Positions 5,263-37,985 of a stretch of DNA of 64,000 nt are shown here, one piece after another. Every line of letters begins with the position of its first letter. Position 1 is the first letter of the stretch. The notes under the pieces were generated by a model. It made no database searches and had not been told where the DNA came from. It worked only from the letters and a program-made list of their open reading frames with translations. The position numbers and the translations under genes are program-made. Location: the NCBI GenBank assembly GCA_964228865.1, contig CAXRAI010000058.1, forward strand, positions 2,011-66,010. The letters are read 5' to 3'. Origin of the DNA: Salinimicrobium sp. GTDB taxonomy: Archaea > Thermoplasmatota > Poseidoniia > Poseidoniales > Poseidoniaceae.

Positions 5263-6342
5263 TCAGGCCTGTTCCAAACCGAGGACACTCGCCGAAGGCG
5301 TGACGTCTTCGAGCGTCTTCTCATCCACTCCGGTGGGCATGCTCGCTCGAGCGGCTTGCGCCCGGTGGTACACCTCCCGAAGGGTTTGATCGCCGATTTC
5401 GAGGTAGACGCGCGTGGTGGCGATGCTGGCGTGACCCAGCAAGCGTTGGATGCTGACCAAATCAGCACCTCGTTCCAACAACCCTGTGGCGAAATTGTGG
5501 CGCAAGACGTGCGGCGTGAGCCGGCCACGCGGCAAACCTGAGGCGACCGACAGATCCTCCATCAAGCGCTGAACGCTCCTCGGGGTCAATCGAGCGCCTC
5601 GTCGGTTGACCAAGACCGGTCCAGAGGCCTCTTCGGTGCGCAACGCGCGTTGCTCGAGCCACAGGTGAAGTTCATCCAGGGTGCGCTCTGTGAACAGCAC
5701 CAGGCGATCCTTGTCACCTTTGCCAGACCGCACCATGGCCGACTGGTCGTCCACGTCGACCGCGTCCAAATCCAAGTCACAGATTTCGCTTACACGCAAT
5801 CCCGTGTCGAGCATCATCGTCACCACGACACGCGCCAGAGGGTCCTCATGCCACCGAGCGGCCTCCAACACGTCACTGAGTTCTCGACGCGTCAGCGTTC
5901 GTGGCAAACGGCGACCGGTGCGGGCCCGGACCAGGTGTTCTGGCCACCGGTGGCCAAGCCAATGGAGCAGGTGACGAGCCGCGGCCAGTTTTGTGTTGAA
6001 CGATGAGGGTTTCAAGTCAGAGAGGCTGTGCACCCAGCGGTCCAAACGGCCGTTCAACGGTTCAACGCGTTCCGCCACTTCCCCCACGCTCAGTGCGTCC
6101 ACATCCTCCAAGTGCGGTTCACCAGGGAGCATGGTTTCCAGCATCGGCCGGATGGAGGTCAGGTAGGTTTTGCGGGTGTTTTCCGACTTTCCTTCAGTGC
6201 GCAGCTGCTGGAGGTAGCACTCCAACCAAGGCAAGCGAGAAAGGTGGTGAAGGCGAGGAGGCAAATCGACGTGCTGCCCCTCATCCAAACGACGTTGACT
6301 GGGTCGAAGTGCCCGTCGTTCTCGTGAAGGTCCCGCGTCCAT
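5263..6342 (-). CDS. xerA: Tyrosine recombinase, XerA/XerCD-like
   Basis: C-terminal catalytic signature HVLRHNFATGLLERGADLVSIQRLLGHASIATTRVYLEI (HxxR ... Y). N-terminal SAM-like core-binding region. Start uncertain. Confidence 0.8.
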   Translation of the reverse strand: MDAGPSRERRALRPSQRRLDEGQHVDLPPRLHHLSRLPWLECYLQQLRTEGKSENTRKTYLTSIRPMLETMLPGEPHLEDVDALSVGEVAERVEPLNGRLDRWVHSLSDLKPSSFNTKLAAARHLLHWLGHRWPEHLVRARTGRRLPRTLTRRELSDVLEAARWHEDPLARVVVTMMLDTGLRVSEICDLDLDAVDVDDQSAMVRSGKGDKDRLVLFTERTLDELHLWLEQRALRTEEASGPVLVNRRGARLTPRSVQRLMEDLSVASGLPRGRLTPHVLRHNFATGLLERGADLVSIQRLLGHASIATTRVYLEIGDQTLREVYHRAQAARASMPTGVDEKTLEDVTPSASVLGLEQA

Positions 6343-9434: not shown

Positions 9435-11558
9435 TTGACGGATGCATCCCGCCTGACGGTCGCCAAACTCAAGGCGCTGTGTGTGCTTCACGACCTGCCA
9501 ACGGGTGGACGGAAAGCAGACTTGGTTGAGCGCCTCTTGGCGGCTGGCCTTGACCGCACCACCCTCGGTCTTTCTGAGGCTAAACCCCCAGAAGCGGGCG
9601 ATGAAGAAGTCATCTCACTCGAACCGGAACCAGAACCCGTCGCCGCGGAGGTGGAAGAGGTTTCATTGGAAGCGGACGTGCCCCTGCCTTCCGCCCGAGA
9701 GGACGAGGTGTTGGAAGCTGAGGTGCTGGAAGCCGAGATGCTCGACACAGAGGAAGAAGACCGGCTTGAACCCCCTCCTGTCGTGCCGCTCCCCGGGTCC
9801 AAACCCTCGGGGCCCACCACGCTGCTTGACATGGTCAAAACGCCAAAAGCTGCGGCCGTCGTTCTTGTGCTTCTGCTGGTCGGGGCCGGTGGCTGGTATT
9901 GGGTCGGCCAACAGCTTCAGCCGGTCACCGTTGATGCGCTTCGCTACGGTGACCAAATGGGCTTCATCCTCGTGGACGGGGAACTGACCGCAACCGAGGG
10001 CTTTGTTGAACCCGTGATCGAACAATTGGACATCGAAGACGACATCTGTCGGCTGGAGGTCTCATTTTCTGGCACTGGCGACGTGGCGGTGCACCAGGGC
10101 ACCATGCTCGACATTCCTTCGCAGGGCTCGGATGACCGTCTTCTCGGGACCGTGAGCGTGCGAGGAGCCCACGGTGCGGAGTGGTTGGCCGTGCAACAGG
10201 AAGCCACCTATGACCTCGATGAATTGGTCGTGAAGCGACATTTGCGCTCCATCGTTCCGGGCTCCAGCGATTGTTCCAGCAGTTCGGCTTCTGCCAGCGG
10301 CGCGGCTGAGCTCACATTGACCTCATGGACCGAAATTGGAGACCGTGTGAACCTCCGAACGAACGCAGATTGGGAGATTGACCTTGAGGGCGTGGTTCGT
10401 GGTTCAACCACCACCTACGGCGTCGGGGGCCTGCTTGGCTCCTTCGAAGTCTTCGCACCGGGCATCGCCATGTTGTCACAGCCTGTGGAATTGCAGTCCC
10501 TTGTGGGCACGGTACCGATCGAGAAAGGTGCGACAGGCACGGGTCTTGGTTGGGATTGGTCCGTGATTGGCGCCGAAGATTTTGCCGGGAAACGCATGTG
10601 GCGCATCGTGGCGACTCAACCGGATTTGAGCACCTATTGTTTGGGAAGCGCGACCCTTTCGATGTGGGTCGAGGCCGACAACCCTTGGGCCAGCCGGCAA
10701 ACGGTTGACGTGCGGTTGTCCGCCGACAACACAGGCCAACAGGATTGCTCAACCCTCTCGAAACAGCTCGGAGATGCGGTCCTTCCCGACGGAGAATTCC
10801 GACTGACCCATACCTTCGAGCGCACCTCGCTCAGCAGGGGCGACGACCGCTTGGACCTCGGCACGACCTATGTTGGTCGTCCAAGCCCAAGCGAACTCGG
10901 GGCACCGGAGGAGTCCTTGGTGACCTGGACGCGCAACGCCAGCCACGTCCCTGACGGGGCGCCGGCCGCCACCACCACCTTGGAGGACGCCGTCGCATGC
11001 TTGCGCTCTGTGGGCTCGTCTGCATCGGGTGCAAATGCTGCACTGGACAACGAGGGTTACATTTGGCGCTCCGTGGGCGATTCGGGTGGAGAAGTGGACG
11101 CTTGGAACCTCTCTTGGGTCGGTACGGACGATGCTCACGGCTGGGTCCGCGTGGACGTCGGTGCCGGTGAGAACGGAGGTTGTACCTTCGTGAGCAAAGA
11201 ATCGCAAGACCTCGGCATTGTGTGGAACCGTGATTCGGCACCGGCCGTGTTGACGATGGAGGAGGTCGAAGGCATGCTGATTGCCGAGGGGCGCTTCCCA
11301 GAATTCGTTGGGGCCAGTGGGCTGTTTGGGGCCAGCGGCGATCACAACGAAGGGCTACGACGGGGCGTGCTGGTGGCGGTCCCTGACGACGGATTGACGG
11401 GGCTGATCAGCGAATTGGTCGACGGAGACGCTGGAGCCACCACCTACGATTTCGTTCGGACTTGGGAAGCACAAGGATGGGAATCGACGCTGAGCGTGGC
11501 CGTTGACGCCAGCAGCGGCAGGGTGTTGGCGACCTCACTCGTCGAGCGGCCGGCGTGA
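9435..11558 (+). CDS. Single-pass membrane protein: N-terminal SAP/HeH motif, acidic linker, TM helix, ~540-aa extracytoplasmic domain
   Basis: LTVAKLKALCVLHDLPTGGRKADLVERLLAAGL matches the SAP motif pattern. It is followed by an E/P-rich linker and TM AAAVVLVLLLVGAGGWYWV. TTG start as given in the ORF track. Confidence 0.6.
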   Translation: MTDASRLTVAKLKALCVLHDLPTGGRKADLVERLLAAGLDRTTLGLSEAKPPEAGDEEVISLEPEPEPVAAEVEEVSLEADVPLPSAREDEVLEAEVLEAEMLDTEEEDRLEPPPVVPLPGSKPSGPTTLLDMVKTPKAAAVVLVLLLVGAGGWYWVGQQLQPVTVDALRYGDQMGFILVDGELTATEGFVEPVIEQLDIEDDICRLEVSFSGTGDVAVHQGTMLDIPSQGSDDRLLGTVSVRGAHGAEWLAVQQEATYDLDELVVKRHLRSIVPGSSDCSSSSASASGAAELTLTSWTEIGDRVNLRTNADWEIDLEGVVRGSTTTYGVGGLLGSFEVFAPGIAMLSQPVELQSLVGTVPIEKGATGTGLGWDWSVIGAEDFAGKRMWRIVATQPDLSTYCLGSATLSMWVEADNPWASRQTVDVRLSADNTGQQDCSTLSKQLGDAVLPDGEFRLTHTFERTSLSRGDDRLDLGTTYVGRPSPSELGAPEESLVTWTRNASHVPDGAPAATTTLEDAVACLRSVGSSASGANAALDNEGYIWRSVGDSGGEVDAWNLSWVGTDDAHGWVRVDVGAGENGGCTFVSKESQDLGIVWNRDSAPAVLTMEEVEGMLIAEGRFPEFVGASGLFGASGDHNEGLRRGVLVAVPDDGLTGLISELVDGDAGATTYDFVRTWEAQGWESTLSVAVDASSGRVLATSLVERPA

Positions 11559-11770
11559 GCCGTTGAGCCTCCGAACCCTGTTTGAAGCGGCGAGTTGGCC
11601 GTCACCTCCAAAGCCTCCGCGTCGCGCATGGTCCATCGATGGGAGAGCGCGGTCGTCAGGTGACCGTTGGCGAGGCAGAGTTTGAGGAGCTTCCTCAGGC
11701 CGCCCCTGCTGCCAGCACGGCCGACGAAATTGGGCCTGCGAAAATCCGCGCGCCGCTCGAGTTGCCGCCC

Positions 11771-12574
11771 ATGCAACCCTCCACCCAAGGTCTGGCACGC
11801 GTCGTCGCGGTAACCAACCAGAAGGGAGGGGTTGGAAAAACCACGACCGTGATCAACCTCGCCGCGAGTTTGGCGGCTTCAGGTCAGCGTGTGCTCGTGG
11901 TCGATCTGGATGCGCAAGGCAACTGTGCCACGGGCTTAGGCATCGACAAGTCGAGGGTTGACCTGACGACACGTGACCTCCTCCTCACGCCTGAACGGGC
12001 GGCTGAATGCAGGTATGCCACCCGAATCCCAACCCTCCATGTCGTGGTTGGCGACCGGAGGCTTGTGTCGGTAGAGGACGCGATTTTGTCGGATCTCGGA
12101 CGCGAATCACGCTTGGCAGAGGGGCTTGCACCCTTGCTGCCGCATTATGACCTGGTGCTCATCGATACGCCTCCCAACCTTGGTGTGCTGGCCATCAACG
12201 CCCTCTGTGCAGCCGATGGCGTGGTCGTGCCTGTGCAAACCGAATACTTCGCACTTGAAGGACTGGCCATGCTGCTGTCAACGGTTGAACAAGTGCGCCG
12301 TCGCTTGAATCCCGGGCTCGGCATCGACGGTGTGCTGATGACGATGCACGCGCCGACCCTCTTGAATCAGCAGGTGGCCAGTTTGTTGCGGGAACATTTG
12401 GGAGACGTGGTCGTTGAACCCCCCATCCGCCGGAACATCCGTTTGGCCGAAGCGACGAGCCGTGGCGAACCCATTCACGTCCACGCGCCCAATTCTAACG
12501 GCGGACAGGACCACCAAGCGGTGTCGAACGCCCTCGCCTCCCGGTGGGGCTTGGTCCGGGGGCGCGGAGCATGA
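11771..12574 (+). CDS. parA: ParA/Soj-family chromosome-partitioning ATPase
   Basis: Deviant Walker A NQKGGVGKTTT, DLDAQGNCATGLG, LIDTPPNLG. Start at MQPSTQGLARVVAV (the track ORF extends upstream to 11582). Confidence 0.88.
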   Translation: MQPSTQGLARVVAVTNQKGGVGKTTTVINLAASLAASGQRVLVVDLDAQGNCATGLGIDKSRVDLTTRDLLLTPERAAECRYATRIPTLHVVVGDRRLVSVEDAILSDLGRESRLAEGLAPLLPHYDLVLIDTPPNLGVLAINALCAADGVVVPVQTEYFALEGLAMLLSTVEQVRRRLNPGLGIDGVLMTMHAPTLLNQQVASLLREHLGDVVVEPPIRRNIRLAEATSRGEPIHVHAPNSNGGQDHQAVSNALASRWGLVRGRGA

Positions 12575-12966
12575 GCGAGCGTGGCTTGGGGCGTGGTCTC
12601 GATCACTTGATCGAACAAAACGCCACCGAACTTGGCTTCCTCGACGCTTACGGGCCCACTCCAGAAGAGGCCCTTGGTGAGATCTTCGATGCGGCATGCC
12701 ATGCCCTCAACGCGCTCAATGGAACACGGACCGAGGATGCGTACGAAACAGAAACCCTCCTGCTCCAAAGGGAGGCCGATGGGACACGGCTCACATGGCG
12801 TGGCCAGCATTTGCCGCTGGTGGCCAGTGATTTGCGGCTGCCCGGTATGCGCGAAGGCATGCTTTCAGACGCTCGGGACATGGCCGAGGTGACCTTCGTG
12901 GATTGGACGCTGGACGTTCGTCGCTGCTTGGAGCGGGTCGTCGAACACCACTCAGGGCCGCCGTGA
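12571..12966 (+). CDS. 131-aa protein with a ParB/Spo0J-type N-terminal peptide (RGLGRGLDHLI) but no ParB/HTH domain
   Basis: Its ATG overlaps the parA stop (ATGA). The N-terminus MSERGLGRGLDHLIEQ mirrors bacterial ParB N-termini. The remainder has no GxRRxRA or HTH motifs. Confidence 0.55.
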   Translation: MSERGLGRGLDHLIEQNATELGFLDAYGPTPEEALGEIFDAACHALNALNGTRTEDAYETETLLLQREADGTRLTWRGQHLPLVASDLRLPGMREGMLSDARDMAEVTFVDWTLDVRRCLERVVEHHSGPP

Positions 12967-13524
12967 GCGCCCACCGACGGTGGCCGCAGCCACGGTCAAG
13001 GCAACAAGGCTGAGTGCAAACCCTGCTCCGGGGCTCTCTTCCTCCTCGACGCAGCCGTCAGCGGTGGACGAGGGACCGCCCCAGCTGCCGTCGTTGAAGT
13101 AGCAGCTCGACCACGTCTTGTACCAGTCACCGAAGGGATGGTACTCGTCATCTCCGTCGGTGTAGGAGACCTTTGCCCGCCAGTTGACGTAACTGTGGTC
13201 CTCGGGAGGCGTCACCGAGATCGTGTAGGTTGAGCCATCATCAGACACGGTCGCCTCCTGTGCAACAGGGGGATCACACACGCCGTCGTTGGTGCAAATC
13301 TGCGTCGTGAGTTCCATCGTCGTGCCGTTGTCGACCGCAGCTTGGTCAAGGGTCACGGTCAAGGTCCATGTTTTGCCATCCACGGAAGGGGAGGTCGCTT
13401 GGTAGGCTGAGAACGGCGTTTCAGCCATGTCTGGGCCTGCATCCTGCCCCCCTGTTCCACCTGCCGTGGCCATGCCGACCATCATCAGCATCAGGGCGAC
13501 CAAGAGCACGTTGCGCATGGGCAT
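12952..13524 (-). CDS. Secreted protein with a PGF-CTERM-like C-terminal anchor
   Basis: Signal peptide MRNVLLVALMLMMVGMATAGG. C-terminus EEEESPGAGFALSLVALTVAAATVGGRSRRP (Pro-Gly...Phe, TM, basic tail). Confidence 0.55.
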   Translation of the reverse strand: MPMRNVLLVALMLMMVGMATAGGTGGQDAGPDMAETPFSAYQATSPSVDGKTWTLTVTLDQAAVDNGTTMELTTQICTNDGVCDPPVAQEATVSDDGSTYTISVTPPEDHSYVNWRAKVSYTDGDDEYHPFGDWYKTWSSCYFNDGSWGGPSSTADGCVEEEESPGAGFALSLVALTVAAATVGGRSRRP

Positions 13525-24748: not shown

Positions 24749-24845
24749 CACCTGCTCGTCGTGACGAGACCACTTGAAACCTTCAATCCAAGCGGTGCAC
24801 GCCAAGAACGAGCGTTCAAGTTCATCCGTGGTTGTCGTCCAACGG

Positions 24846-27800
24846 ATGGAGGCCCTGCAGCAACGGCAACGTGCGTCCTTTGGGATGCTGCTGGTGCTGT
24901 TGCTTCCGCTTTTTCTTCCTGTGGCCTCAGCAGCGCTCGGACCCGTCCGAGAGGTGAGCAGCCCCACCGTGACCGTTGCTCCGCTGGGCGGTGGTGGCGG
25001 CATCACGTCGGCCAACGTGACCTCGCTCACCGTACCTGCCAACCACACCGTGATCGACGCCGGTCTCACGGTGGGTACGCTGTGGAGCGACGACGGGACG
25101 AATGGCACGCAATTTGCTCACGACGTGAGAACCGGTTTCTCCGGTGGACTGCACGATCGCACGGAAGGGTTGCTGAGGGGCGGACGCCTGACCCTTGCTT
25201 CACCGGCCTCGAACAACGACGTGGAAGATTTCGAAGACCCGGTGCTGACACCGGACGGTTGGTTGGCCATCGGAAGCGCCGACCGTGCTTGGTCCACGGT
25301 GAACCTCTCCACCGTCTCGTTGAACACGTCCTTGGCCTCAAGCGCTTATCTCGGGCACCGTGCCCTTCTCCTCGGTGGGCCGAACGCGACGTTGGATTCG
25401 CAGATGGCGGGATGTTTCGTCAGTCCGCAGGTGGACGGCCCGCGCGTGGTTCGAAACATGACGGTGAGGTTCCGCTCTTCGGCCGACCTCGGGCCAAACG
25501 ACGTGCGTTGGGTCGAATGGCGCAGCGAGGCCACCACCACGTGGTCTGCATTGACGCCATCGGGCGGATATCCACACCAGGTCAGCGGCAGCTTCCCGGC
25601 CGGTTTGGTCCCCAACCCCCAGGCGCTCAGCACCGCGTGGGTCGGTGACGAGGGTCAAGGATGGACCTTGCATGAGTTGCCGTTGGACGGCCACCTCGGC
25701 TCTGCAGAGGCGTGGTACCAACTTCGGTTTTGTTTCGCAACGACCAACGACACGGCCCCTCGAACCGGTTGGCTGCTCGACGGCCTCAGCGTTCACAACG
25801 AAGGGGATCCTGGTGGCGCGTGGTTCCATGGGAACCTCTCAGGGGCCTACGCACCTGATGCCGACGGGTGGGTGGTGCTGGACACCGACCTCTCCGGCCT
25901 GTCGTCCCCGACCGAACTGGCCTTCCGAGCGCATTGGGACATGGAAGGCGGGTGGCAGGACAGCATGACCACCCTGCTGAGCCTCGATCACGGGGCCTCC
26001 TGGACCTTGTTGTCCCAAGCCCCAGGCCTTCCCGGGAACGGTGTGCTCTGGCAGGGCGGCTGGCTCACGCAAGAATCAGGCGAGTGGGTGGACATCGAGT
26101 ACAGCCTTCCTCCGGGGGTGTTCACGTCCCCGAATGCGTCTTCTGCCCAACTGGCGTTTCGGGTCATCACCGACGCCAACGTGGGCTATGGAAATGCGGG
26201 GGTGGACGGCTGGGAAGGCATCGCCATCGACGACTTGCGGGCCGTGACCTACGGCGGGCCCGGCAACACCACGGTACGCATGCTGGACAACTTCACGACC
26301 TCGCCGGTGCTCGGCCAAGGGGTCAACCTCAGCCAAAGCAACAGCACCAACGAGTGGGTGTGGACACAAGCCATCGGAGCCAACGGTCCAACGTGGTGGA
26401 ACGCCTCCTTTGAATCGGGCAGGATGGTGCCACGAGGATGGTCGATCGCCCTCGAGCGTGGCCAAGGATGGGACGTGGGCATTCTCCCCAACGGGACGAC
26501 GGCCGGGCCACGCGCATGGCCTTCCGGCCAACAGGGTGCTGGCATTGTGTTGACCGGAGACTATGCCGCAGAAAGCTTGGCCTATCTGACCTCTCCGAGT
26601 TACAGCCTTCCTGACAACAGCAGTGCACGCTTGTCCTTCCGCTCATGGGTGTGCACGGAAACGGATTGGGACGGAGGAGCGGTGCAGATTTCGGTGGACG
26701 ACGGAGCCTCCTGGTGGTTCCCTCCCTACCACAGCCACACGCACCATACCCTGTCGAGGATGAATCCATACTCGCCCTTCTACGGCGAGGGCATCTACGA
26801 CGGTTCAATTCACACCGGTGGTTGCCCAACACGTTCGCAGGCCTTCGATGCGGAAACCATCGACGTCAGCAACCTCTCCGGGCAAGAGGTACGGTTCAGG
26901 TACGTCTTCTTCTCGGACACCTGGGTGGAAAAAGACGGTTGGTACATCGACGACGCTGGGGTAGAAATCGACCTTTTCTTGGATGAAGGCACATGGACAT
27001 CGCCGTCATTCAGCGCACCAAACCAAGCGATGTGGGGTCTGTTGGACGGTCATGCACGTCTTCCTCCGGGCACCAACCTCACGGTGGATTTGCTCCATCC
27101 GAACGGTTCGATCGTGCCCGGATGGGCTGGGTTGACCTTGCCCACGCACGTGACCCTCTCGACCAGCGACGTCCCTGTCCTCAAAATGCGCGTCAACATG
27201 TCGACCACGTCGTCGTTGGCCACGCCCATCCTCGAGCGGCTCACGCTGGGCAGCGTGACCCACTTGGACGCAGCACATGTGGCCTCCAACGCACCAAGCG
27301 GCCTCGTGATTGGGCAAGACGGAACGATGCAAAACGTGGCCGCCCAAGCCCGGGTTCTCACCTTCCCTGCTTGGCCCGCCTGCCCTCACCAGCAAGCCAC
27401 GGTCCATGTCGTCGGTCAAGGCGCTCGGCCGGTCGCGCCCAGTGCAGCAATCACCTCGCTTGGCAACGCTTCTGGTGTGGAGACGTTCAGCGTGGAATGG
27501 ACCGCGTTGAGGCTTCAATCCAACCTTGGCGTGGAATTGCCACCGGCGACCAGCCTCGAAGAAGCGCGCGCAGAGGTCACCTGCTTGCATTCAGCTTCTG
27601 GAGTCCGGGTCGGTCTGGATGCACAAGCCTACGAGGTCTTTGACGTGGTCTCGTTGGGGTACGGCGATGTTCTCGGCTCATCGGATGCTTTGGCTTCGTT
27701 CGTCAACCTCAGCGACGGTGCCTTGCTCTGGGAGGAGAACAGCACCGTTTCAGGAGCAACGGTCGGTGCGAATCAGAGCGTGGAAGTCCAATGGTACGTC

Positions 27801-30800
27801 GAGGGAGGACCGTCGAGCACGACCTCTTCCGTACCGTTTGGTTTGGTGCTTGGCGTGGACGCCTCGGGCATGGCCCTGTCCCACCCTGCCGGGGCCAACA
27901 CGCTCACCCACCTCAGCAACGGTGCCAATCAGGTTCACGTCTTGGGCACGGCCTCGTGCCAACGGCACGTGGACGCTCCGTCGCCCTACGGTCACCGGTG
28001 CAGCACGACGCTGCGCGCGTGGTCCTCGACGGCGTTGATCCCCCTTGAATTCACGGCGTTGAGCCCTGTGAACGACCGCCGCATCGCCTTGAACCTGGAC
28101 GTTCTTGATGCTGCGTTGAACGAACGAAGGCAGAGCAGCACCGCTTCTGAACATCCCTTGGAAGTGTGGGTCGTCACCGATCACGGAGCCGTTGACGTCA
28201 CGTTCGACCTCGCCTCAAGGGCGAGGTTGCACGACGCTTTCCTGAGCCTCCCGAGCACAACGTGGACTCCAGGGACCAGCATCACGGTCGTCACCGAGCA
28301 CGAACGCACCGACGTTCGCGATGCGTCGGCCACCGTCCCCCCTATCGAATCGATCACGCTCGCCTTCGGTCCTTCTCCCTCCATGCCCCTTGGTGAGGTG
28401 ATTGTTGATCGGTTGGACGAAGGTCTTGCCCGGTTCAGGCAACCTTCTGGAGCAGGTTTGGCCGCGCTTCAAGGCACCAGCACCGCCTCGTGCGACGCCC
28501 GTTCCTGTGAGGTGTCATGGACCTTCATCTCATCATGGTCCTTTGACGACGTGCCGCAATTGCACTGGTGGACGGCGGCCACGGATGCGGATGGACTGCA
28601 GACTGGGCCGGCGGTCCAATCCATGAACGTCCAAGGCAACGACGTGGAGAACGACCTCGAAGTGATTTCGTTGGAGGTTTTCGATGACCGAGGCCGAGCC
28701 CTGCACGATTGGACCAAACCGTTGTGGCCGTTCGAAGTCAGTGCAGATCGGAACTTGGAGGTCCGCGGTCAGCTCAGGGTGGAAGGCGTCCAAGGCATCC
28801 ATCCAAGGGCTGGAGAAGCGTCCATCAGCCTTGAATTGCGGAACGGATCCTGGATGGACAGCGTTTTGGTCAACGTTCAGGACAATGGACGGTTCAACGG
28901 GACCCTCACCACGCCTTCTCCCGGCACCTTACCCAGCGGAGCACCACTGACCGTTGAGGCACGCATCATCCGGTTTGGTCCGGCGAACGCGCCATCGACC
29001 ACAAGCCAGCAGCGAGGCAACTCTCCCGTGGTGGATCTGGTCTACGACGACGTCCTCCCACAGTTCGTTGGTCTCGACGTCCTTGACCCCGGTGGACGAC
29101 AACCTGCCGATGGGCACGTGCTTCCGTCGGACTCGAACGTGGCCCTTGTGTTGAGCCTGAGCGACGATCAAGGCTTGGATGGGCCCGCCTATGTGTGGTC
29201 CTGGCTGGAATCGCGTGATGACGTGGACGACGACGGGGTCAGCGACCTCGAAGAATGGGTTCGGATGGTCGTTCCGCTGGCCGAAGGACGGAAGGAACAA
29301 TCCCTCGATCTGCCCTTGATTCAATCCTCCGACATCGTCCCAAACGGGGCGGACCTCGGGCTTGCTCGCTTCGTGGTTGAGGCATACGATGTCGCGGGCC
29401 ACGCCCTCCCAGGAGGAGGCGCGCTTGAGGGGCCATTTGCCGCAGAACTGCGGCTTGAGGCACGACGCCCCACCACCGTACCGACGTCTAGCCTGATGCT
29501 CGATACAGACCAAGGCCGTCTGTATCCCGGACATGTGCACACCTTCTCCACTGTGATTCAGGACGCCAACGGGCTGACCACGCTCGACGCCATCGAGGTG
29601 GCCTTGCTTGGCCAAAACGAGGATGCATGCCGGATTGTTTACGTTCCCAGAACTGGAGAAACCAAGCCCGATGTCGGCTGTTTCCTTGGTGCGCCTGAGG
29701 TCATGGTGCTTCCTCTGACGGGGGCCTCATGGCGGCTGGACATCGCCTTCAGGTTGCGTTGGGACATCGCCACGACCCACGCCGACGTGGACCACGTCCC
29801 CGCGCTGTTTGTGCGTGATGAGGGCCAAGACCTGGGTTTGGGATTCGGTCGCATCAGTGCGTTGACCTGGTGGACCAACGCCTCGGTTGATCTCCGCGTG
29901 GAGACCGTAAGCGACACAACCCCACCCTTCGGATCCTACGCGAATGGAGCCATCTATGCTCAGCGCGGTGATGTCATCAACGTCGGATTCCGCGTGGTCC
30001 ATTCCAACTCAAACCATACCGCAGAGCGTCTGCCCGGCACCGTCGGTCTCGATTGGTTCGTCACCGATGGAGCCCGGACCGACAGCGGTTCAATGGACGT
30101 GCCGAACGATGGGGAACCTACGCTACGAATTTCATTGGACCCGTCCCTCTTTGTCCGGACCTCAGGCCATCTCGAGGCTTCGCTCTCGGGATGGTCGGAA
30201 GGTGAACGCACGCAGCGCGTCTCGGTTCACATCGACGAGCATGAACCGCGTTTGTTGGTCACCGCCATCCAATTCATGCAGGTGAACAGCACTTCGCTCG
30301 ACGATGTTGCGCTGGAAGTGACCGTTCAAGACGTGGAACGTCCCGTGGAGGATGGGGTCGTGGCCCACTGGAGGATGCTCCGACAAGGCCGTGTGATGGA
30401 GGGTTCTTCGGGGTCGAGTCCTCTGACGCTTGATGCCTTGGCCGGAAGTTCCGCGGTCCATTCGGGCAGGGTCGATCTTCGGCCAGCGACCCTTGAGGTC
30501 ATGGAAGGTGACGTGTGGCAGGTTTGGTTCACCGCAACGGATGCTGCGGGACGAACAGCGGTTGGCGAGGGAAGCCCCAGCGAGCCGGTCACCGTCACCA
30601 TGCGCTGGATCGCCTACCAACCCGCACTTGTTTCCTTGGTGGCTGACCCCTTCCGCCCAACCCTTGGGGAGGTCGTGAACGTGGAATTCGAAGTGGCCAA
30701 CGGCGGCGTTCTTCCTGGGGCCACTTCGGTCCGGTTGATCGACGACAAGGGCATGACGTTGGCTGAACAGGACGTTTCACTGGCGCCAGGAGAACGTCAA

Positions 30801-31079
30801 CGCATCACGTGGAGCATAGAGGCATGGGCCATTGGCGACCTCGGACTTCGTCTTCAACTCGACAACGGAAGCGTGAGCGATGTTCCCGTGCCGTTGGCGG
30901 ACGTCAGCGCCGCCAGCGAAGGCGTAAGCGGCAGCAACGTTGGATGGACGAGCCTTGGAGCACTCGCTCTGATCCTTGCCGTGGCCAGCCTTGTGTTGGT
31001 GCGCGTTCAGGGCAGATCCAGAACCCTCGGAAAGCCCGTGGTGGAGCTTGAAGATTCGGCCTTTGATGAGGAAGAATGA
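24846..31079 (+). CDS. Giant (2077 aa) type-I membrane surface protein
   Basis: Signal peptide MEALQQRQRASFGMLLVLLLPLFLPVASA. Repeated beta-sandwich end motifs (GWLLDGLSV, GIAIDDLRA, GWYIDDAGVEI). CARDB-like module near the C-terminus. TM LGALALILAVASLVLV and an acidic tail. Confidence 0.8.
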   Translation: MEALQQRQRASFGMLLVLLLPLFLPVASAALGPVREVSSPTVTVAPLGGGGGITSANVTSLTVPANHTVIDAGLTVGTLWSDDGTNGTQFAHDVRTGFSGGLHDRTEGLLRGGRLTLASPASNNDVEDFEDPVLTPDGWLAIGSADRAWSTVNLSTVSLNTSLASSAYLGHRALLLGGPNATLDSQMAGCFVSPQVDGPRVVRNMTVRFRSSADLGPNDVRWVEWRSEATTTWSALTPSGGYPHQVSGSFPAGLVPNPQALSTAWVGDEGQGWTLHELPLDGHLGSAEAWYQLRFCFATTNDTAPRTGWLLDGLSVHNEGDPGGAWFHGNLSGAYAPDADGWVVLDTDLSGLSSPTELAFRAHWDMEGGWQDSMTTLLSLDHGASWTLLSQAPGLPGNGVLWQGGWLTQESGEWVDIEYSLPPGVFTSPNASSAQLAFRVITDANVGYGNAGVDGWEGIAIDDLRAVTYGGPGNTTVRMLDNFTTSPVLGQGVNLSQSNSTNEWVWTQAIGANGPTWWNASFESGRMVPRGWSIALERGQGWDVGILPNGTTAGPRAWPSGQQGAGIVLTGDYAAESLAYLTSPSYSLPDNSSARLSFRSWVCTETDWDGGAVQISVDDGASWWFPPYHSHTHHTLSRMNPYSPFYGEGIYDGSIHTGGCPTRSQAFDAETIDVSNLSGQEVRFRYVFFSDTWVEKDGWYIDDAGVEIDLFLDEGTWTSPSFSAPNQAMWGLLDGHARLPPGTNLTVDLLHPNGSIVPGWAGLTLPTHVTLSTSDVPVLKMRVNMSTTSSLATPILERLTLGSVTHLDAAHVASNAPSGLVIGQDGTMQNVAAQARVLTFPAWPACPHQQATVHVVGQGARPVAPSAAITSLGNASGVETFSVEWTALRLQSNLGVELPPATSLEEARAEVTCLHSASGVRVGLDAQAYEVFDVVSLGYGDVLGSSDALASFVNLSDGALLWEENSTVSGATVGANQSVEVQWYVEGGPSSTTSSVPFGLVLGVDASGMALSHPAGANTLTHLSNGANQVHVLGTASCQRHVDAPSPYGHRCSTTLRAWSSTALIPLEFTALSPVNDRRIALNLDVLDAALNERRQSSTASEHPLEVWVVTDHGAVDVTFDLASRARLHDAFLSLPSTTWTPGTSITVVTEHERTDVRDASATVPPIESITLAFGPSPSMPLGEVIVDRLDEGLARFRQPSGAGLAALQGTSTASCDARSCEVSWTFISSWSFDDVPQLHWWTAATDADGLQTGPAVQSMNVQGNDVENDLEVISLEVFDDRGRALHDWTKPLWPFEVSADRNLEVRGQLRVEGVQGIHPRAGEASISLELRNGSWMDSVLVNVQDNGRFNGTLTTPSPGTLPSGAPLTVEARIIRFGPANAPSTTSQQRGNSPVVDLVYDDVLPQFVGLDVLDPGGRQPADGHVLPSDSNVALVLSLSDDQGLDGPAYVWSWLESRDDVDDDGVSDLEEWVRMVVPLAEGRKEQSLDLPLIQSSDIVPNGADLGLARFVVEAYDVAGHALPGGGALEGPFAAELRLEARRPTTVPTSSLMLDTDQGRLYPGHVHTFSTVIQDANGLTTLDAIEVALLGQNEDACRIVYVPRTGETKPDVGCFLGAPEVMVLPLTGASWRLDIAFRLRWDIATTHADVDHVPALFVRDEGQDLGLGFGRISALTWWTNASVDLRVETVSDTTPPFGSYANGAIYAQRGDVINVGFRVVHSNSNHTAERLPGTVGLDWFVTDGARTDSGSMDVPNDGEPTLRISLDPSLFVRTSGHLEASLSGWSEGERTQRVSVHIDEHEPRLLVTAIQFMQVNSTSLDDVALEVTVQDVERPVEDGVVAHWRMLRQGRVMEGSSGSSPLTLDALAGSSAVHSGRVDLRPATLEVMEGDVWQVWFTATDAAGRTAVGEGSPSEPVTVTMRWIAYQPALVSLVADPFRPTLGEVVNVEFEVANGGVLPGATSVRLIDDKGMTLAEQDVSLAPGERQRITWSIEAWAIGDLGLRLQLDNGSVSDVPVPLADVSAASEGVSGSNVGWTSLGALALILAVASLVLVRVQGRSRTLGKPVVELEDSAFDEEE

Positions 31080-31109: not shown

Positions 31110-31193
31110 GACGGAGTTCCCGAGCGGTCAAAGGGGGTGGACTCAAGATCCTCTGCTAAGGCTTCGCAGGTTCGAATCCTGCCTCCGTCACCA
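31110..31193 (+). tRNA. tRNA-Leu (anticodon CAA), class II with a long variable arm, CCA encoded
   Basis: Acceptor GACGGAG/CTCCGTC, anticodon loop CTCAAGA, T-arm GCAGG-TTCGAAT-CCTGC, then A-CCA. One U-U mismatch in the anticodon stem. Confidence 0.8.
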
Positions 31194-31272
31194 CTCTCAC
31201 TGCCCAATCATGCTCCAACCGTGCCGAATCTGACGCCAAAACGTGGCCATAGAGGCGATGTAACAACGAAAG

Positions 31273-31356
31273 TGCGGGGAGCAGGATTCGAACCTGCGAA
31301 CCGTTGAGGACTGCGACCTGAACGCAGCGCCGTTGACCAAGCTGGGCGATCCCCGC
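31273..31356 (-). tRNA. tRNA-Leu (anticodon CAG), class II
   Basis: The minus strand reads GCGGGGA..CTGCG-TTCAGGT-CGCAG..GCAGG-TTCGAAT-CCTGC-TCCCCGC-A. All stems are perfect. Confidence 0.88.
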
Positions 31357-35424: not shown

Positions 35425-37941
35425 ATGGTGCATTCGAGGCCAACCGGTGACGGACCCGACCGTCGCAGCCTCTCGGCTTTGCGTGGGCAATTCACTCGGG
35501 CCCACAGCACCAGCGCCGAACAAGAAGGCCACGTCAGCGCTCGATATCACGAAGAGGAGCGTCTTCGTGGCGAAGTGCGTCGTGAGCGTCGTCTCCGTCA
35601 CCAGGAACTCCGCGAGCGTGTTCTCGCACAGCAGAGCAACCTCGTGATGCGCTATGAACTCGAACGCGAGCGCACGTTGCAACAAGTTGAGCGTGAAATG
35701 CGTGAGGCGATGGAAACGGAATTGGCCGAGGAAGGCCGAGAAGCCATCGCGCGCGAGGAGAGCCGCTTGCGGGACGAGCATCTGATGCGCCTCGAGCGTG
35801 AAATGGCCGTGCTGCGGCAGCGCTACGAGGTGGAAACCGATCGACGGATGGAAGAGGAGAAGCAGCGCATTGAGCATGACCTTCGCCTGCAGCTCGAGGA
35901 AGAGCATGAACATCGACTTGAGGTGGCCAAGCAGCGCCTTCAATTGGAGCAAAACCAACGCCTCCACCGACGCATTCGGGCCCTTGAGGAAGACATCGCA
36001 GAGGAGATGGAATCCCGTTACAAAGCCCTTGAATCCCTTGAAGTTGACCGGTTGAAGGACGAACAAGAATCTGTGCTCGCAGAACGTGAAGAGCAACTCC
36101 GGCACGGCATCCGTACGCGCCTCGAGCAGCAGGTCCGTCAACGCCTCAGCCACCGTGAAGCGGCGCTCCGTGCGGAGTACGCCCGACGCAGTCAGCGGCT
36201 TGAAGCCGACCTTGGATCTGAAATTCAACAGGAACTCGAGGTCCGCCTTCGACAGGACACCGAAGACCTCGAACAACGCATGCGTGAGGACGTGGAACTG
36301 GCCATCGCACGACGTCGTGACGAGTTGCGGCATGAAGTTGAGCAGCAACTCGAGGAACGTTTCGCAGAGCGCCTTTCCGACCGTAAGGCACGGCTTCGTG
36401 AGCGCTTCGACCTCAGTTACGGCAAAGCGATTGACGAGGTTGAACACGCCCTTCGCTCCCAGGTTGAAGAGGAGCTCGAAGCCAGCACCAACGAGGATTT
36501 CGAACGGTACCGTGAAGCACGCGAATCCGAGATTCAGAACCGTCTTGCTCGGTTCCGATACGAGCGTGAAGCACAACTTCGCGAAGAATTGGAGGCCAAG
36601 CATGCAACCAAGCGCGAAGAATGGACTGAGCGCCTCGAACTCGAATTCCAGAGCCGTGAAGCTGCTGCACGAAAGGCCATCATGTCTGAGGTGGACGCCA
36701 GCCTGCGCAACGAACGCTTGGCCTGGGACACAGACCTTGACTTGCTGAAGGAAGAGACGGTTCTCGAACTTGAGTTGGACATGGAAGAGCGCCTGTCCGC
36801 CTTCCGCGAGCGGAAGATGGACGAGGTCGCCACCCAGCTCGAGCGTCAACTCGACAAGCGCGAGGAGATCATGCGCAACAAGGCCCTCATCGACGTGCGC
36901 CGAAAGGAAGCACGCATCCGGGCAGAAATCGAGGCCCAACTCGGCCTCAAGCGTGCTGAAATCCGTGACCGCATCTCCGGTTTGTCCAAGAAGATGGACG
37001 AATTCAAGACCATGGCCGAGGAACGGATGCGCGAGAGCATCACCTCGCAAATCGAGGGTGAGATTGCCACCGATGAGGCCACCCTCGCCGAGCGCGAGGC
37101 GGAGATGCGTCAACTTCAGAGTCAGGATCAGCGCATCGACAAGCGTCAGCAGTGGCTCGCGTCCATTTCAGGGCAAGGCGGTGCAGCCGCCGCGCCTGCG
37201 GACGCAGCAGCTCTTGGGGCGCGCCCAGATTCCTTGGGAGCATCGGCCGGCCGAGCCCTCCGAGGCCCAATGGCACAGGCTGCACAAGCCCAACAACCAC
37301 GCATGGGGCTCGCAGGCATGCGGGCTCCCACTTCATCCGCGCGAGCCTTGGCTCCCTCAGCCCCCGCTCCTGTCGTCAAGGCCGTCAAGCAGGTCAAAAC
37401 ACCCGTCGTGGCTCCAGCCGCGCCCGTGCAATCTCCCGTGTCTTCGGTCGAGCCTGAAGCAGGGCTGCCCTCCAACGTTGTTCCAGTCTCGCCGGCGAGC
37501 GATGCTTCGGCGGCCGAGCCTCCCGAGGCTTCTCCCGCCATCGAGCCGGCCGTCAGCGAGGAAGACAACACGCTCCCGACGCCGGTGCAGACCACGGAAC
37601 TCGCCATGGACGCCGTCCTTGAGGAGGCCCACGGTGACGTGGCCGAAGCCGAGATGGAGGCCATGCTCGATGAGTCCAACGGTCAACCGGCTGAAGCGGT
37701 CCTTCCAACCCCCGTATCCACGCCCGTCAAGGCCGGTGGAGAGGTCTTCGGCGATCGGCCCATCCTCAAGCCAATCCGCACAATGCATGCCCTTGGCACG
37801 CCCCGTTCCACCGCGACGCTGAAACCTGCCATGCCGGTTCTTTCCGTGGCCGGTGAAACGCCCGTGCTCCAACCGGTCACGACCATGACGCCCCAACAGC
37901 TGACTCCTGTTGAGCGCCTCGAACCGTCCGATGAGGACTGA
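35425..37941 (+). CDS. 838-aa protein: ~570-residue Glu/Arg-rich charged helical region plus an Ala/Pro/Val-rich low-complexity tail
   Basis: Continuous E/R/Q/L-rich sequence (e.g. RLEREMAVLRQRYEVETDRRMEEEKQRIEHDLRLQLEEEHEHRLEVAKQRL). The antisense 584-aa ORF is an artefact. Confidence 0.65.
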   Translation: MVHSRPTGDGPDRRSLSALRGQFTRAHSTSAEQEGHVSARYHEEERLRGEVRRERRLRHQELRERVLAQQSNLVMRYELERERTLQQVEREMREAMETELAEEGREAIAREESRLRDEHLMRLEREMAVLRQRYEVETDRRMEEEKQRIEHDLRLQLEEEHEHRLEVAKQRLQLEQNQRLHRRIRALEEDIAEEMESRYKALESLEVDRLKDEQESVLAEREEQLRHGIRTRLEQQVRQRLSHREAALRAEYARRSQRLEADLGSEIQQELEVRLRQDTEDLEQRMREDVELAIARRRDELRHEVEQQLEERFAERLSDRKARLRERFDLSYGKAIDEVEHALRSQVEEELEASTNEDFERYREARESEIQNRLARFRYEREAQLREELEAKHATKREEWTERLELEFQSREAAARKAIMSEVDASLRNERLAWDTDLDLLKEETVLELELDMEERLSAFRERKMDEVATQLERQLDKREEIMRNKALIDVRRKEARIRAEIEAQLGLKRAEIRDRISGLSKKMDEFKTMAEERMRESITSQIEGEIATDEATLAEREAEMRQLQSQDQRIDKRQQWLASISGQGGAAAAPADAAALGARPDSLGASAGRALRGPMAQAAQAQQPRMGLAGMRAPTSSARALAPSAPAPVVKAVKQVKTPVVAPAAPVQSPVSSVEPEAGLPSNVVPVSPASDASAAEPPEASPAIEPAVSEEDNTLPTPVQTTELAMDAVLEEAHGDVAEAEMEAMLDESNGQPAEAVLPTPVSTPVKAGGEVFGDRPILKPIRTMHALGTPRSTATLKPAMPVLSVAGETPVLQPVTTMTPQQLTPVERLEPSDED

Positions 37942-37985
37942 GCGAAGAAACGAGCCATTCAAGGCCTTGAGGTCCATCGACGGCC

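What the first reader, a model, noticed from the sequence alone, without database searches (positions are those of the whole stretch)
11771..12966. ParA/Soj ATPase translationally coupled to a mini-ParB that keeps only the ATPase-stimulating N-terminal peptide
The parA stop overlaps the ATG (ATGA) of a 131-aa ORF. Its N-terminus MSERGLGRGLDHLIEQ is nearly identical in pattern to bacterial ParB/Spo0J N-termini (..RGLGRGLxALL..). In ParB this basic peptide contacts ParA and stimulates its ATPase. The rest of the protein shows no ParB/Srx box (GxRRxRA), no HTH and no obvious DNA-binding motif. The protein therefore looks like an adaptor that couples a ParA gradient to something other than a canonical parS-ParB complex. 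This is comparable in logic to McdB, PomY or other ParA-like partner proteins. I do not recognise it as a described family in archaea.
Basis: partly seen in the sequence, partly recalled or inferred. Interest (0 to 1): 0.66.

Follow-up and report, generated by a model that had tools for sequence, protein, structure and literature searches.

The report
ParA partner with borrowed ParB tail
A small, unannotated protein conserved across the abundant marine archaea Poseidoniales carries the short bacterial ParB peptide that switches on the DNA-segregation ATPase ParA, attached to an unrelated body and genetically linked to a DNA-binding membrane protein, which points to an undescribed archaeal chromosome-positioning system.

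Summary
A Soj-type parA ends in TGA at 12572-12574, overlapping the ATG (12571) of a 131-aa ORF (12571-12966). Correction: parA most likely starts at ATG 11639 (311 aa), not 11771.

Residues 6-14 of the small protein, LGRGLDHLI, match in identity and spacing the five ParA-binding residues mapped in M. xanthus ParB (L11, R13, L15, L18, I19). The rest is not ParB. It has no Pfam or PDB sequence hit, and AF2 gives a disordered tail plus a confident acidic alpha/beta domain with only marginal Foldseek matches.

The family is unannotated and spans both Poseidoniales families. The ancestral cassette is a SAP-domain membrane protein, then ParA, then the small protein. ParA was lost from the locus at least three times while the small protein stayed. 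After loss, the first hydrophobic residue and the glycines of the motif decay. The Arg, the other hydrophobics and a second invariant motif (EQNxTELxFLxAYG) persist.

Best reading: a non-ParB ParA partner, probably an adaptor to the SAP membrane protein. It also has a ParA-independent role. The ParA-partner reading rests on sequence pattern and gene order only; the adaptor role is inferred. I rate it a new variant of a known kind, interest about 0.6.

The parts
9435..11558 (+). SAP-domain single-pass membrane protein (707 aa), the candidate third component. Features: N-terminal SAP helix-extended-helix (aa 4-38); disordered acidic tail with conserved short motifs ISLE (59-63), VPLP (82-85) and EVLEAEVLEAEMLD (91-104); TM helix about aa 139-158; beta-rich outer domain of about 545 aa.
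   Evidence: Pfam SAP 1.4e-09. The motifs are conserved across both Poseidoniales families. AF2 gives the SAP helices at pLDDT 72-84, aa 50-144 below 50, a TM helix at 137-158, and low overall confidence (mean 56). The gene lies directly upstream of ParA or of the small gene in 45 loci. There are 705 homologue clusters of about 700-745 aa; the few listed entries that carry an organism name are Poseidoniales/Poseidoniaceae.
11639..12574 (+). Soj-type ParA ATPase (311 aa). It includes a conserved 44-aa N-terminal extension (11639-11770) carrying an acidic EAEFEE motif.
   Evidence: Pfam AAA_31 8e-55. Nearest solved structures: M. xanthus ParA 8RAY 2.7e-55, Thermus Soj 1.7e-51, H. pylori Soj 2.8e-43. 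Archaeal SegA 7DUT scores only 1.3e-15 and pNOB8 ParA 7.6e-08. The extension is conserved in relatives.
11822..11842 (+). Deviant Walker A motif KGGVGKT with the signature lysine.
   Evidence: It is the only [KR]GGxGK[ST] match in the six-frame translation of the window.
12571..12574 (+). ATGA overlap: start codon of the small gene and stop codon of parA.
   Evidence: Direct reading of the sequence. Tight coupling is conserved in relatives.
12571..12966 (+). 131-aa ParA partner ('mini' protein), a member of an unannotated family restricted to Poseidoniales.
   Evidence: 24 close homologues. The profile search finds 67 representatives with E<1e-3 and 33 with E<1e-10. There are 214 further clusters for the Thalassarchaeaceae-type subfamily and at least 105 GTDB species. 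No Pfam or NCBIfam hit. Purifying selection is evident.
12586..12612 (+). Motif 1, LGRGLDHLI (aa 6-14): a ParB-type ParA-interaction motif.
   Evidence: L6, R8, L10, L13 and I14 have the same spacing as L11, R13, L15, L18 and I19 of M. xanthus ParB, each shown there to matter for ParA binding or activation (PMC12462528). The full motif is present in 19 of 26 ParA-adjacent loci and 0 of 49 loci with neither ParA nor the SAP gene adjacent.
12613..12654 (+). Motif 2, EQNATELGFLDAYG (aa 15-28). It is invariant in the close family and conserved family-wide as (E/A)Q(N/H)xT(E/D)LxFLxAYG. It has no ParB counterpart and is kept when ParA is absent.
   Evidence: Alignments A1 and A2 and the N-termini of 89 loci.
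12661..12954 (+). Acidic globular alpha/beta domain (aa 31-128) with topology alpha-beta-beta-beta-alpha-beta-beta-alpha. Family-invariant LP(L)VxSD(L), W112 and R122; conserved R102 and R117-R118.
   Evidence: AF2 pLDDT is 91-95 over aa 41-120. The domain pI is 4.73, against a window ORF median of 5.9. Foldseek finds only marginal hits: T4 MotA C-terminal domain E 0.035, the T3SS chaperones SycT and SpcU, YjbR, phage G gp54 E 3e-3, and DUF5655.
12952..13524 (-). Convergent 190-aa secreted protein whose 3' end overlaps the small gene by 15 nt. It is a conserved neighbour and is not proposed to be part of the mechanism.
   Evidence: Signal-peptide-like N-terminus and a C-terminal PGAGF + TM + RSRRP tail. 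It is syntenic in nearly all loci.

Best explanation
The 131-aa protein is the cognate partner of the Soj-type ParA encoded just upstream. It is not a ParB.

Its disordered N-terminus carries a ParB-type ParA-interaction motif (L6-G-R8-G-L10-x-x-L13-I14). [quoted passage not shown]

The body is a novel, acidic alpha/beta domain. It most likely dimerises and binds protein rather than DNA. The best candidate cargo is the cytoplasmic tail of the SAP-domain membrane protein encoded at the head of the cassette. That protein's SAP motif would supply the DNA contact and its TM helix a membrane anchor.

Together the three genes would form a ParB-free, three-component chromosome-positioning module. A second invariant N-terminal motif (EQNxTELxFLxAYG) and the domain serve a function that survives loss of ParA.

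Shown here: gene structure, the motif match, fold novelty, synteny, phyletic spread, and motif decay after ParA loss. Inferred: ParA binding and stimulation, dimerisation, binding to the SAP protein, and DNA binding by the SAP domain.
For: 1. Motif: residues and spacing are identical to the mapped ParA-binding residues of M. xanthus ParB. The strict pattern occurs only here in the window.

2. ParA type: it belongs to the bacterial chromosomal Soj class that uses such peptides (8RAY 2.7e-55, Thermus Soj 1.7e-51, against SegA 1.3e-15). Four of the six mapped ParB-pocket residues are identical or conservative: L181, V183, I186, L223. D147 and Q218 differ (read against PMC12462528).

3. Coupling: the 4-nt overlap here, and spacing from an 8-nt overlap to a 10-nt gap in relatives down to 29% identity.

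4. Co-variation with synteny (after moving two loci, L091 and L095, that the script misplaced because of long N-terminal extensions):
- ParA-adjacent loci (n=26): hydrophobic at -2 in 19, Gly at +1 in 26.
- SAP-adjacent loci without ParA (n=19): 4 and 19.
- Loci with neither adjacent (n=49): 0 and 0.
- The central R/K and the other three hydrophobics are kept in all loci.
On an NJ tree the ParA-containing lineages are basal. Loss is followed stepwise by L to D and then by loss of the glycines.

5. Not ParB, SegB or RHH: no Pfam hit for 28 family members. No PDB sequence hit. AF2 gives an alpha/beta fold with no ParB or RHH Foldseek match. The SegB signature motif is absent.

6. Adaptor rather than DNA binder: pI is 4.7, in the acidic quartile of window ORFs. 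No parS-like repeat cluster lies nearby. The topology and acidity resemble dimeric T3SS chaperones, though only weakly.

7. SAP link: the order SAP, ParA, mini is found in both Poseidoniaceae and Thalassarchaeaceae-type lineages. SAP-mini with a 4-nt overlap occurs in L092. SAP stays syntenic even when two genes are inserted between the pair. The SAP tail carries conserved short linear motifs.
Against: - No interaction was modelled or measured.
- In 69 of 95 loci ParA is not within 6 kb, yet the protein and most of its N-terminus are conserved. The N-terminal region therefore has another role or another ATPase partner.
- Whether those genomes encode ParA elsewhere could not be checked.
- The co-variation rests on only about three independent loss events.
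- Two of the six ParB-pocket residues in ParA differ (D147, Q218).
- The top Foldseek hits include a DNA-binding fold (T4 MotA C-terminal domain, YjbR), so direct DNA binding is not excluded.
- In 39 loci no SAP gene lies within 6 kb upstream.
- The SAP protein model is of low confidence, and DNA binding by its SAP motif is assumed from the Pfam family.
Confidence: 0.5

Rival explanations
1. The small protein is itself the centromere-binding protein of a two-component ParA system, as ParG, SegB and HpaB are. It would use a novel DNA-binding fold, and the SAP membrane protein would be an unrelated neighbour.
For: Small partners with an N-terminal ParA-activating tail are usually DNA binders (SegB, HpaB). 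The best PDB Foldseek hits are the dsDNA-binding T4 MotA C-terminal domain (E 0.035, TM 0.38-0.49) and YjbR. MotA appears again in BFVD. Conserved arginines R102, R117, R118 and R122 sit in the domain.
Against: All Foldseek hits are non-significant. The domain is acidic (pI 4.73, net charge about -9). No RHH or HTH is predicted. No repeat cluster resembling a centromere lies near the locus. Conserved SAP-mini synteny, including a 4-nt overlap in L092, suggests a functional link to the SAP protein.
Confidence: 0.2
2. The core function is ParA-independent. The small protein works with the SAP-family membrane protein, or another partner, in all Poseidoniales. ParA is an accessory insertion in some lineages, and the LGRGL resemblance adds little or is convergent.
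For: The protein, motif 2 and the domain are conserved in 69 loci without ParA. SAP and the small gene stay syntenic without ParA. Motif 2 is more strictly conserved than motif 1.
Against: ParA sits at the same position between the SAP gene and the small gene in both families, and in the basal Poseidoniaceae branches. This fits ancestry plus loss better than repeated insertion. The motif matches ParB at all five functional positions and decays only where ParA is absent.
Confidence: 0.15
3. The protein activates or is positioned by a different ParA/MinD-family ATPase encoded elsewhere. For example, it could place the membrane protein or mark a division site, in the manner of MinE, PomX or McdB, rather than segregate DNA.
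For: The central Arg and three hydrophobics of the motif persist in lineages lacking the adjacent ParA. ATPase-activating N-terminal peptides are a general feature of ParA/MinD partners. The syntenic cargo candidate is a membrane protein.
Against: No second ParA/MinD gene is in the window, and none was found in about 0.95 Mb of related loci by tblastn with ParA queries. The adjacent ATPase is of the chromosomal Soj type and is far closer to bacterial ParA/Soj than to MinD. The SAP motif points to DNA.
Confidence: 0.1
4. The ORF is a decayed remnant of a bacterial parB acquired together with parA: a truncated pseudogene or a chance ORF.
For: The ParA is of bacterial Soj type, and the N-terminal peptide is ParB-like.
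Against: Length is conserved, third-position substitutions dominate, and the family spans an order with hundreds of clusters. AF2 predicts a confident globular domain. No trace of ParB/Srx or HTH sequence or fold was found.
Confidence: 0.02

Closest known systems
[quoted passage not shown]
   Same: The ParA is closest to M. xanthus ParA and Thermus Soj. The partner gene lies immediately downstream and is translationally coupled. The LGRGLxxLI motif has the same five key residues. Four of the six pocket residues in ParA are conserved or conservative.
   Different: The partner lacks the ParB/Srx CTPase domain, the HTH and the C-terminal dimerisation domain. It is 131 aa and acidic, has a second invariant motif unknown in ParB, and occurs in archaea. 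No parS-like repeats were seen.
pNOB8 AspA-ParB-ParA three-component archaeal partition system (cited from the review PMC5120986, found but not read here, and from my own knowledge)
   Same: The logic is the same: a ParA, an adaptor that contacts ParA, and a separate DNA-binding protein encoded in the same cassette.
   Different: No homology. pNOB8 ParA scores only 7.6e-08 against this ParA. The DNA binder here would be a SAP-domain membrane protein rather than a soluble winged-helix protein. The system here is chromosomal and order-wide rather than plasmid-borne.
SegAB of Sulfolobales and HpaAB of Haloferax (PMC12139799; bioRxiv 10.1101/2025.11.19.689047)
   Same: An archaeal ParA-family ATPase followed, with overlapping or adjacent genes, by a small lineage-specific partner whose N-terminus contacts the ATPase. 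HpaA is likewise described as a ParA of bacterial origin.
   Different: SegB and HpaB are ribbon-helix-helix DNA binders. SegB has a C-terminal signature motif that is absent here. This protein has a different alpha/beta fold, shows no sequence match to SegB structures, and carries a canonical ParB-type motif.
Non-DNA ParA/MinD cargo adaptors with N-terminal activating peptides (McdB, PomX, MinE; own knowledge, and mentioned)
   Same: A small partner with a disordered, charged N-terminal activating peptide and a cargo-binding body that does not bind DNA.
   Different: These families are unrelated in sequence. Their ATPases (McdA, PomZ, MinD) are not Soj-type. None is linked to a SAP-domain membrane protein.

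Membership tests
ParB/Spo0J | N-terminal ParA-interaction motif (hydrophobic-G-R/K-G-hydrophobic-x-x-hydrophobic-hydrophobic) | tested here: met
   LGRGLDHLI at aa 6-14 aligns with L11, R13, L15, L18 and I19 of M. xanthus ParB.
ParB/Spo0J | ParB/Srx (CTPase) domain with the GxRRxRA box | tested here: not met
   No Pfam ParBc hit at E<=1 and none for 28 family members. No G.RR.RA in the ORF. No ParB among Foldseek PDB hits.
ParB/Spo0J | Helix-turn-helix parS-binding domain and C-terminal dimerisation domain | tested here: not met
   AF2 gives an alpha-beta-beta-beta-alpha-beta-beta-alpha domain of about 100 aa with no HTH. The PDB profile search returns no ParB.
SegB (archaeal) | Ribbon-helix-helix fold and the C-terminal signature K/R-D/N-P-K/R-I-G/T-V/L-WS-Y/P-P/E | tested here: not met
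   The signature as given in PMC12139799 is absent from the sequence. No PDB sequence hit to SegB entries. The predicted fold is not RHH.
SegB / HpaB / ParG-type partners | Encoded immediately downstream of a ParA-family ATPase | tested here: met
   A 4-nt overlap here. Adjacent to ParA in 26 of 95 related loci, spanning both Poseidoniales families.
Chromosomal ParA/Soj (for the upstream gene) | Deviant Walker A KGGxGKT with signature lysine; AAA_31/CbiA fold; closest relatives are chromosomal Soj proteins | tested here: met
   KGGVGKT at 11822-11842. AAA_31 8e-55. 8RAY 2.7e-55, 1WCV 1.7e-51, 6IUB 2.8e-43. No NCBIfam equivalog cut-off is reached.
Chromosomal ParA/Soj (for the upstream gene) | Hydrophobic ParB-binding pocket (M. 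xanthus V116, L150, L152, L155, L187, L192) | tested here: inconclusive
   The aligned residues are D147, L181, V183, I186, Q218 and L223. Four of six are identical or conservative (read against PMC12462528).
ParA-activating adaptor (functional class) | Stimulates the ATPase of its ParA and links it to a cargo | not testable with these tools
   This needs biochemistry or complex modelling.

The most novel reading that the evidence does not exclude
Poseidoniales ancestrally segregate or anchor their chromosome with a ParB-free, membrane-tethered three-part machine. A single-pass membrane protein grips DNA with a cytoplasmic SAP domain. A small acidic adaptor binds that protein's tail. The adaptor uses a captured bacterial ParB peptide to engage a horizontally acquired Soj ATPase on the nucleoid. 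Most Poseidoniaceae later dispensed with the ATPase but kept the SAP-adaptor pair.
Probability: 0.25. Interest if true: 0.8.

Novelty: new variant of a known kind. Interest (0 to 1): 0.6.

Why it matters
Chromosome segregation in archaea is poorly understood. What is known comes from Sulfolobales (SegAB), a plasmid (pNOB8) and, recently, Haloferax (HpaAB).

This locus gives a concrete, testable candidate system for Poseidoniales (Marine Group II), among the most abundant planktonic archaea and still uncultured.

It also shows that the ParB ParA-activating peptide can exist as a portable module on an unrelated protein body. It links a Soj-type ATPase to a SAP-domain membrane protein, an arrangement not described for any ParA system in the literature I could search.

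The natural series of ParA loss followed by stepwise motif decay identifies which residues are ParA-specific. It also shows that a second conserved motif has another partner. The key claims can be tested in vitro with recombinant proteins, without culturing the organism.

Tried and rejected
1. Diverged ParB, SegB or RHH. Pfam and NCBIfam on the protein and on 28 family members, PDB sequence and profile searches, and Foldseek against PDB all gave no support.

2. Fold identification. Foldseek against PDB and BFVD gave only marginal hits: MotA C-terminal domain, T3SS chaperones, YjbR, phage G gp54 and DUF5655, with E from 3e-3 to 0.5. I treat these as leads, not assignments.

3. Modelling the complex.

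4. Centromere-like repeats. A repeat and terminator scan of 7-15 kb found nothing beyond chance-level short matches.

5. Structure of the SAP protein. The AF2 model had mean pLDDT 56, too low for a fold search. Only the SAP helices, the disordered tail and the TM helix are used.

6. Broad-alignment scans of genome contigs failed for lack of a conserved stretch. The successful scan used HL[IM]EQN[ASD]TE, so it is biased towards the Poseidoniaceae subfamily.

7. ParA elsewhere in ParA-less genomes.

8. Literature. Searches for Poseidoniales with ParA, and for Marine Group II with SAP domain, found nothing relevant.

9. A full-length ParB in the window. I ran only a crude G.RR.RA motif scan, which found none in plausible ORFs. 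The rest of the genome was not available.
Full report
**Observation**

The frame 11582..12574 (+) encodes a ParA-family ATPase. Pfam gives AAA_31 8e-55 and CbiA 6.5e-24, and the deviant Walker A KGGVGKT lies at 11822-11842. Its TGA at 12572-12574 overlaps the ATG at 12571 of a 131-aa ORF that ends at 12966 and begins MSERGLGRGLDHLIEQ.

The ORF is a real gene:
- It has 24 close homologues of nearly the same length, at 47-98% identity.
- Differences from relatives concentrate at third codon positions, for example 24/14/60 by position against L010.
- Synonymous-only codon changes exceed non-synonymous ones.

One correction is needed. The ParA most likely starts at ATG 11639 (311 aa), not 11771. 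The 44-aa extension (MGERxRQVTVGEAEFEE...AKxRAPLxLPP) is conserved in relatives, and gene callers give 309-339 aa there.

**Is the N-terminal resemblance to ParB real?**

Work on M. xanthus ParB (PMC12462528) showed that ParA binding depends on L11, L15, L18 and I19. The central R13 engages a second surface of ParA, and a 20-residue peptide plus DNA is enough to stimulate ParA. The window protein has L6, R8, L10, L13 and I14, the same residues at the same spacing.

The strict pattern occurs once in the six-frame translation of the whole window. About 0.2 occurrences are expected by chance. The significance therefore lies in its position, in the first 15 residues of the gene coupled to parA, and in its conservation.

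The ParA is of the matching type. Its best solved relatives are M. xanthus ParA (8RAY, 2.7e-55), Thermus Soj (1.7e-51) and H. pylori Soj (2.8e-43). Archaeal SegA scores 1.3e-15 and pNOB8 ParA 7.6e-08. Of the six ParB-pocket residues mapped in M. xanthus ParA, four are identical or conservative here (L181, V183, I186, L223) and two differ (D147, Q218).

**What is the rest of the protein?**

It is not ParB:
- No Pfam or NCBIfam hit for this protein or for 28 family members.
- No PDB sequence or profile hit.
- No GxRRxRA box.

AF2 (mean pLDDT 81) predicts residues 1-30 as disordered. A confident domain follows (pLDDT 91-95 over aa 41-120) with topology alpha-beta-beta-beta-alpha-beta-beta-alpha. 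Foldseek finds nothing significant. The best hits are the T4 MotA C-terminal DNA-binding domain (E 0.035), the T3SS chaperones SycT and SpcU, YjbR, phage G gp54 (E 3e-3) and DUF5655.

The protein is acidic, with pI 4.67 overall and 4.73 for the domain. The median for window ORFs is 5.9.

Family-wide alignment shows three conserved elements:
- Motif 1, described above.
- Motif 2, (E/A)Q(N/H)xT(E/D)LxFLxAYG, which is invariant in the close family.
- Domain residues LP(L)VxSD(L), W112, R117-R118, R122 and E125.

The SegB signature and its RHH fold are absent. HpaB of Haloferax is also an RHH protein.

**Distribution**

The profile search finds 67 representatives at 50% clustering with E<1e-3. A scan of GTDB species genomes with one motif variant alone returned 105 relatives. 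The listed records are titled Poseidoniales or Poseidoniaceae, or carry generic archaeal MAG names. They include the reference MG-II genome CM001443.1.

A second subfamily, with N-terminus KKRGLGRGLDDLLAQHDTDLPFL, has 214 clusters. Some of these are named Candidatus Thalassarchaeaceae. Every named entry is 'hypothetical protein'. Literature searches found no description.

**Synteny**

I classified 97 loci:

| Class | Arrangement | Loci |
|---|---|---|
| A | SAP-domain membrane protein, then ParA, then small protein | 26 |
| B | SAP protein directly followed by the small protein, no ParA within 6 kb | 19 |
| C' | SAP gene a few kb upstream, with two inserted opposite-strand genes | 11 |
| C | neither within 6 kb | 39 |
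| unclassifiable | too little upstream sequence | 2 |

- Class A includes the window, several Poseidoniaceae branches and Thalassarchaeaceae-type loci (L090, L091, L093, L095; L095 has two opposite-strand genes between the SAP gene and ParA).
- Class B includes L092, where the SAP gene and the small gene overlap by 4 nt.
- Class C' is illustrated by L054 and L096.
- Class C includes CM001443.1.

The downstream genes are conserved throughout: a secreted protein, PUA, FAA hydrolase, S8e, SRP19 and PolB. These place the locus on the main chromosome.

On an NJ tree of the small protein plus PUA, class A lineages are basal and paraphyletic in Poseidoniaceae. Classes B, C' and C are nested inside them. 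Parsimony needs three changes in ParA presence. The simplest reading is an ancestral three-gene cassette followed by repeated ParA loss.

**Motif decay after ParA loss**

The counts below come, after moving two loci (L091 and L095) that the script had misclassified because of long N-terminal extensions.

| Class | n | Hydrophobic at -2 | Gly at -1 | Gly at +1 |
|---|---|---|---|---|
| A (ParA adjacent) | 26 | 19 | 23 | 26 |
| B (SAP adjacent, no ParA) | 19 | 4 | 18 | 19 |
| C (neither adjacent) | 49 | 0 | 1 | 0 |

The central R/K, the three downstream hydrophobics, motif 2 and the domain are kept in all loci. The typical N-termini run LGRGLDHLI (A), DGRGLDHLM (B) and K[SQT]RD[LF]DHL[MI] (C).

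This pattern ties the ParB-specific part of the motif to ParA. It also shows that the remainder of the N-terminus and the domain have a ParA-independent function or another partner. The caveat is that only about three independent loss events underlie it.

**The SAP protein**

This protein is 707 aa. It has an N-terminal SAP motif (Pfam 1.4e-09) and a disordered acidic tail. A single TM helix follows at about aa 139-158, then a beta-rich outer domain.

The tail carries short motifs conserved across both families: ISLE, VPLP and an amphipathic acidic repeat (V/I)LEAE(V/I)LEA(E/D). The ParA N-terminal extension contains a similar EAEFEE element.

There are 705 homologue clusters of about 700-745 aa. 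The few listed entries that carry an organism name are Poseidoniales or Poseidoniaceae.

**Interpretation**

Most likely the small protein is a non-ParB partner of a Soj-type ParA. It would use a ParB-type activating peptide, while its body acts as a (probably dimeric) protein-binding adaptor. The SAP membrane protein is the best cargo candidate and would supply the DNA and membrane contacts.

- The ParA-partner part rests on sequence pattern, synteny and co-variation. I give it about 0.75.
- The adaptor-to-SAP part is inference from synteny, acidity and fold topology. I give it about 0.4.

The rivals are:
- a novel-fold centromere-binding protein;
- a primarily ParA-independent SAP-associated function;
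- partnership with another ParA/MinD ATPase;
- a ParB remnant, which the conservation data reject.

**Comparison and novelty**

The logic matches known ParA systems with non-ParB partners: SegAB, HpaAB, pNOB8 AspA-ParB-ParA, and McdAB. The protein fails the membership tests for ParB, SegB and RHH partners.

Three things are new:
- a canonical ParB peptide on an unrelated acidic alpha/beta body;
- the conserved link to a SAP-domain membrane protein;
- order-wide chromosomal conservation in uncultured marine archaea, with a natural ParA-loss series.

I rate it a new variant of a known kind, with interest 0.6.

Noticed in passing
window 9435-11558 (+); also L001-L004, L010-L022, L090-L096: A 700-750-aa SAP-domain single-pass membrane protein whose disordered cytoplasmic tail carries short motifs (ISLE, VPLP, (V/I)LEAE(V/I)LEAE) conserved across both Poseidoniales families. 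It is syntenic with the small protein even where ParA is absent. There are 705 homologue clusters; the few named ones are Poseidoniales/Poseidoniaceae.
   Followed up: partly
window 11639-11770 (+): The ParA has a conserved 44-aa N-terminal extension with an acidic V-x-EAEFEE element that resembles the LEAE repeat of the SAP protein tail, followed by AKxRxPLxLP. Its function is unknown.
   Followed up: partly
window 12952-13524 (-): A convergent 190-aa secreted protein overlaps the 3' end of the small gene by 15 nt. It ends in a PGF-CTERM-like tail (PGAGF + hydrophobic stretch + RSRRP; PGF in L085). It is a neighbour of the small gene in nearly all related loci.
   Followed up: no
window 5263-6342 (-); L003, L093, L094, L096: A Xer-like tyrosine recombinase (Phage_integrase 2.9e-35 plus an N-terminal SAM-like domain) lies next to RimK, 3-5 kb upstream of the cassette. 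It holds the same position in distant relatives, so it may be the chromosomal XerA rather than a prophage integrase.
   Followed up: no
L054 443-5886; L096 12167-17610: In one Poseidoniaceae clade the position of parA is occupied by two opposite-strand genes: an S8 peptidase/proprotein-convertase surface protein of about 1150 aa and an unannotated protein of about 630 aa.
   Followed up: no
P0032 (264 aa, metagenome gene call): A public gene call fuses the ParA C-terminus, an out-of-frame stretch and part of the small protein. This is most likely a frameshift in the assembly or gene call rather than a natural fusion.
   Followed up: no
window 10008-10037 and 12601-12630: A 30-nt direct repeat at 73% identity links the SAP gene (encoding ..EPVIEQLDIE..) and the small gene (..DHLIEQNATE..). 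It is probably chance.
   Followed up: no
window 24774-31079 (+); 35425-40388 (+): A 2101-aa acidic ORF (pI 4.55) was not examined. Two adjacent ORFs of 838 and 800 aa have no Pfam hit.
   Followed up: no
window 31110-31193 (+) and 31272-31356 (-): Two tRNA-Leu genes (CAA and CAG) lie convergently about 80 nt apart. Rfam reports only the first at its gathering threshold.
   Followed up: no
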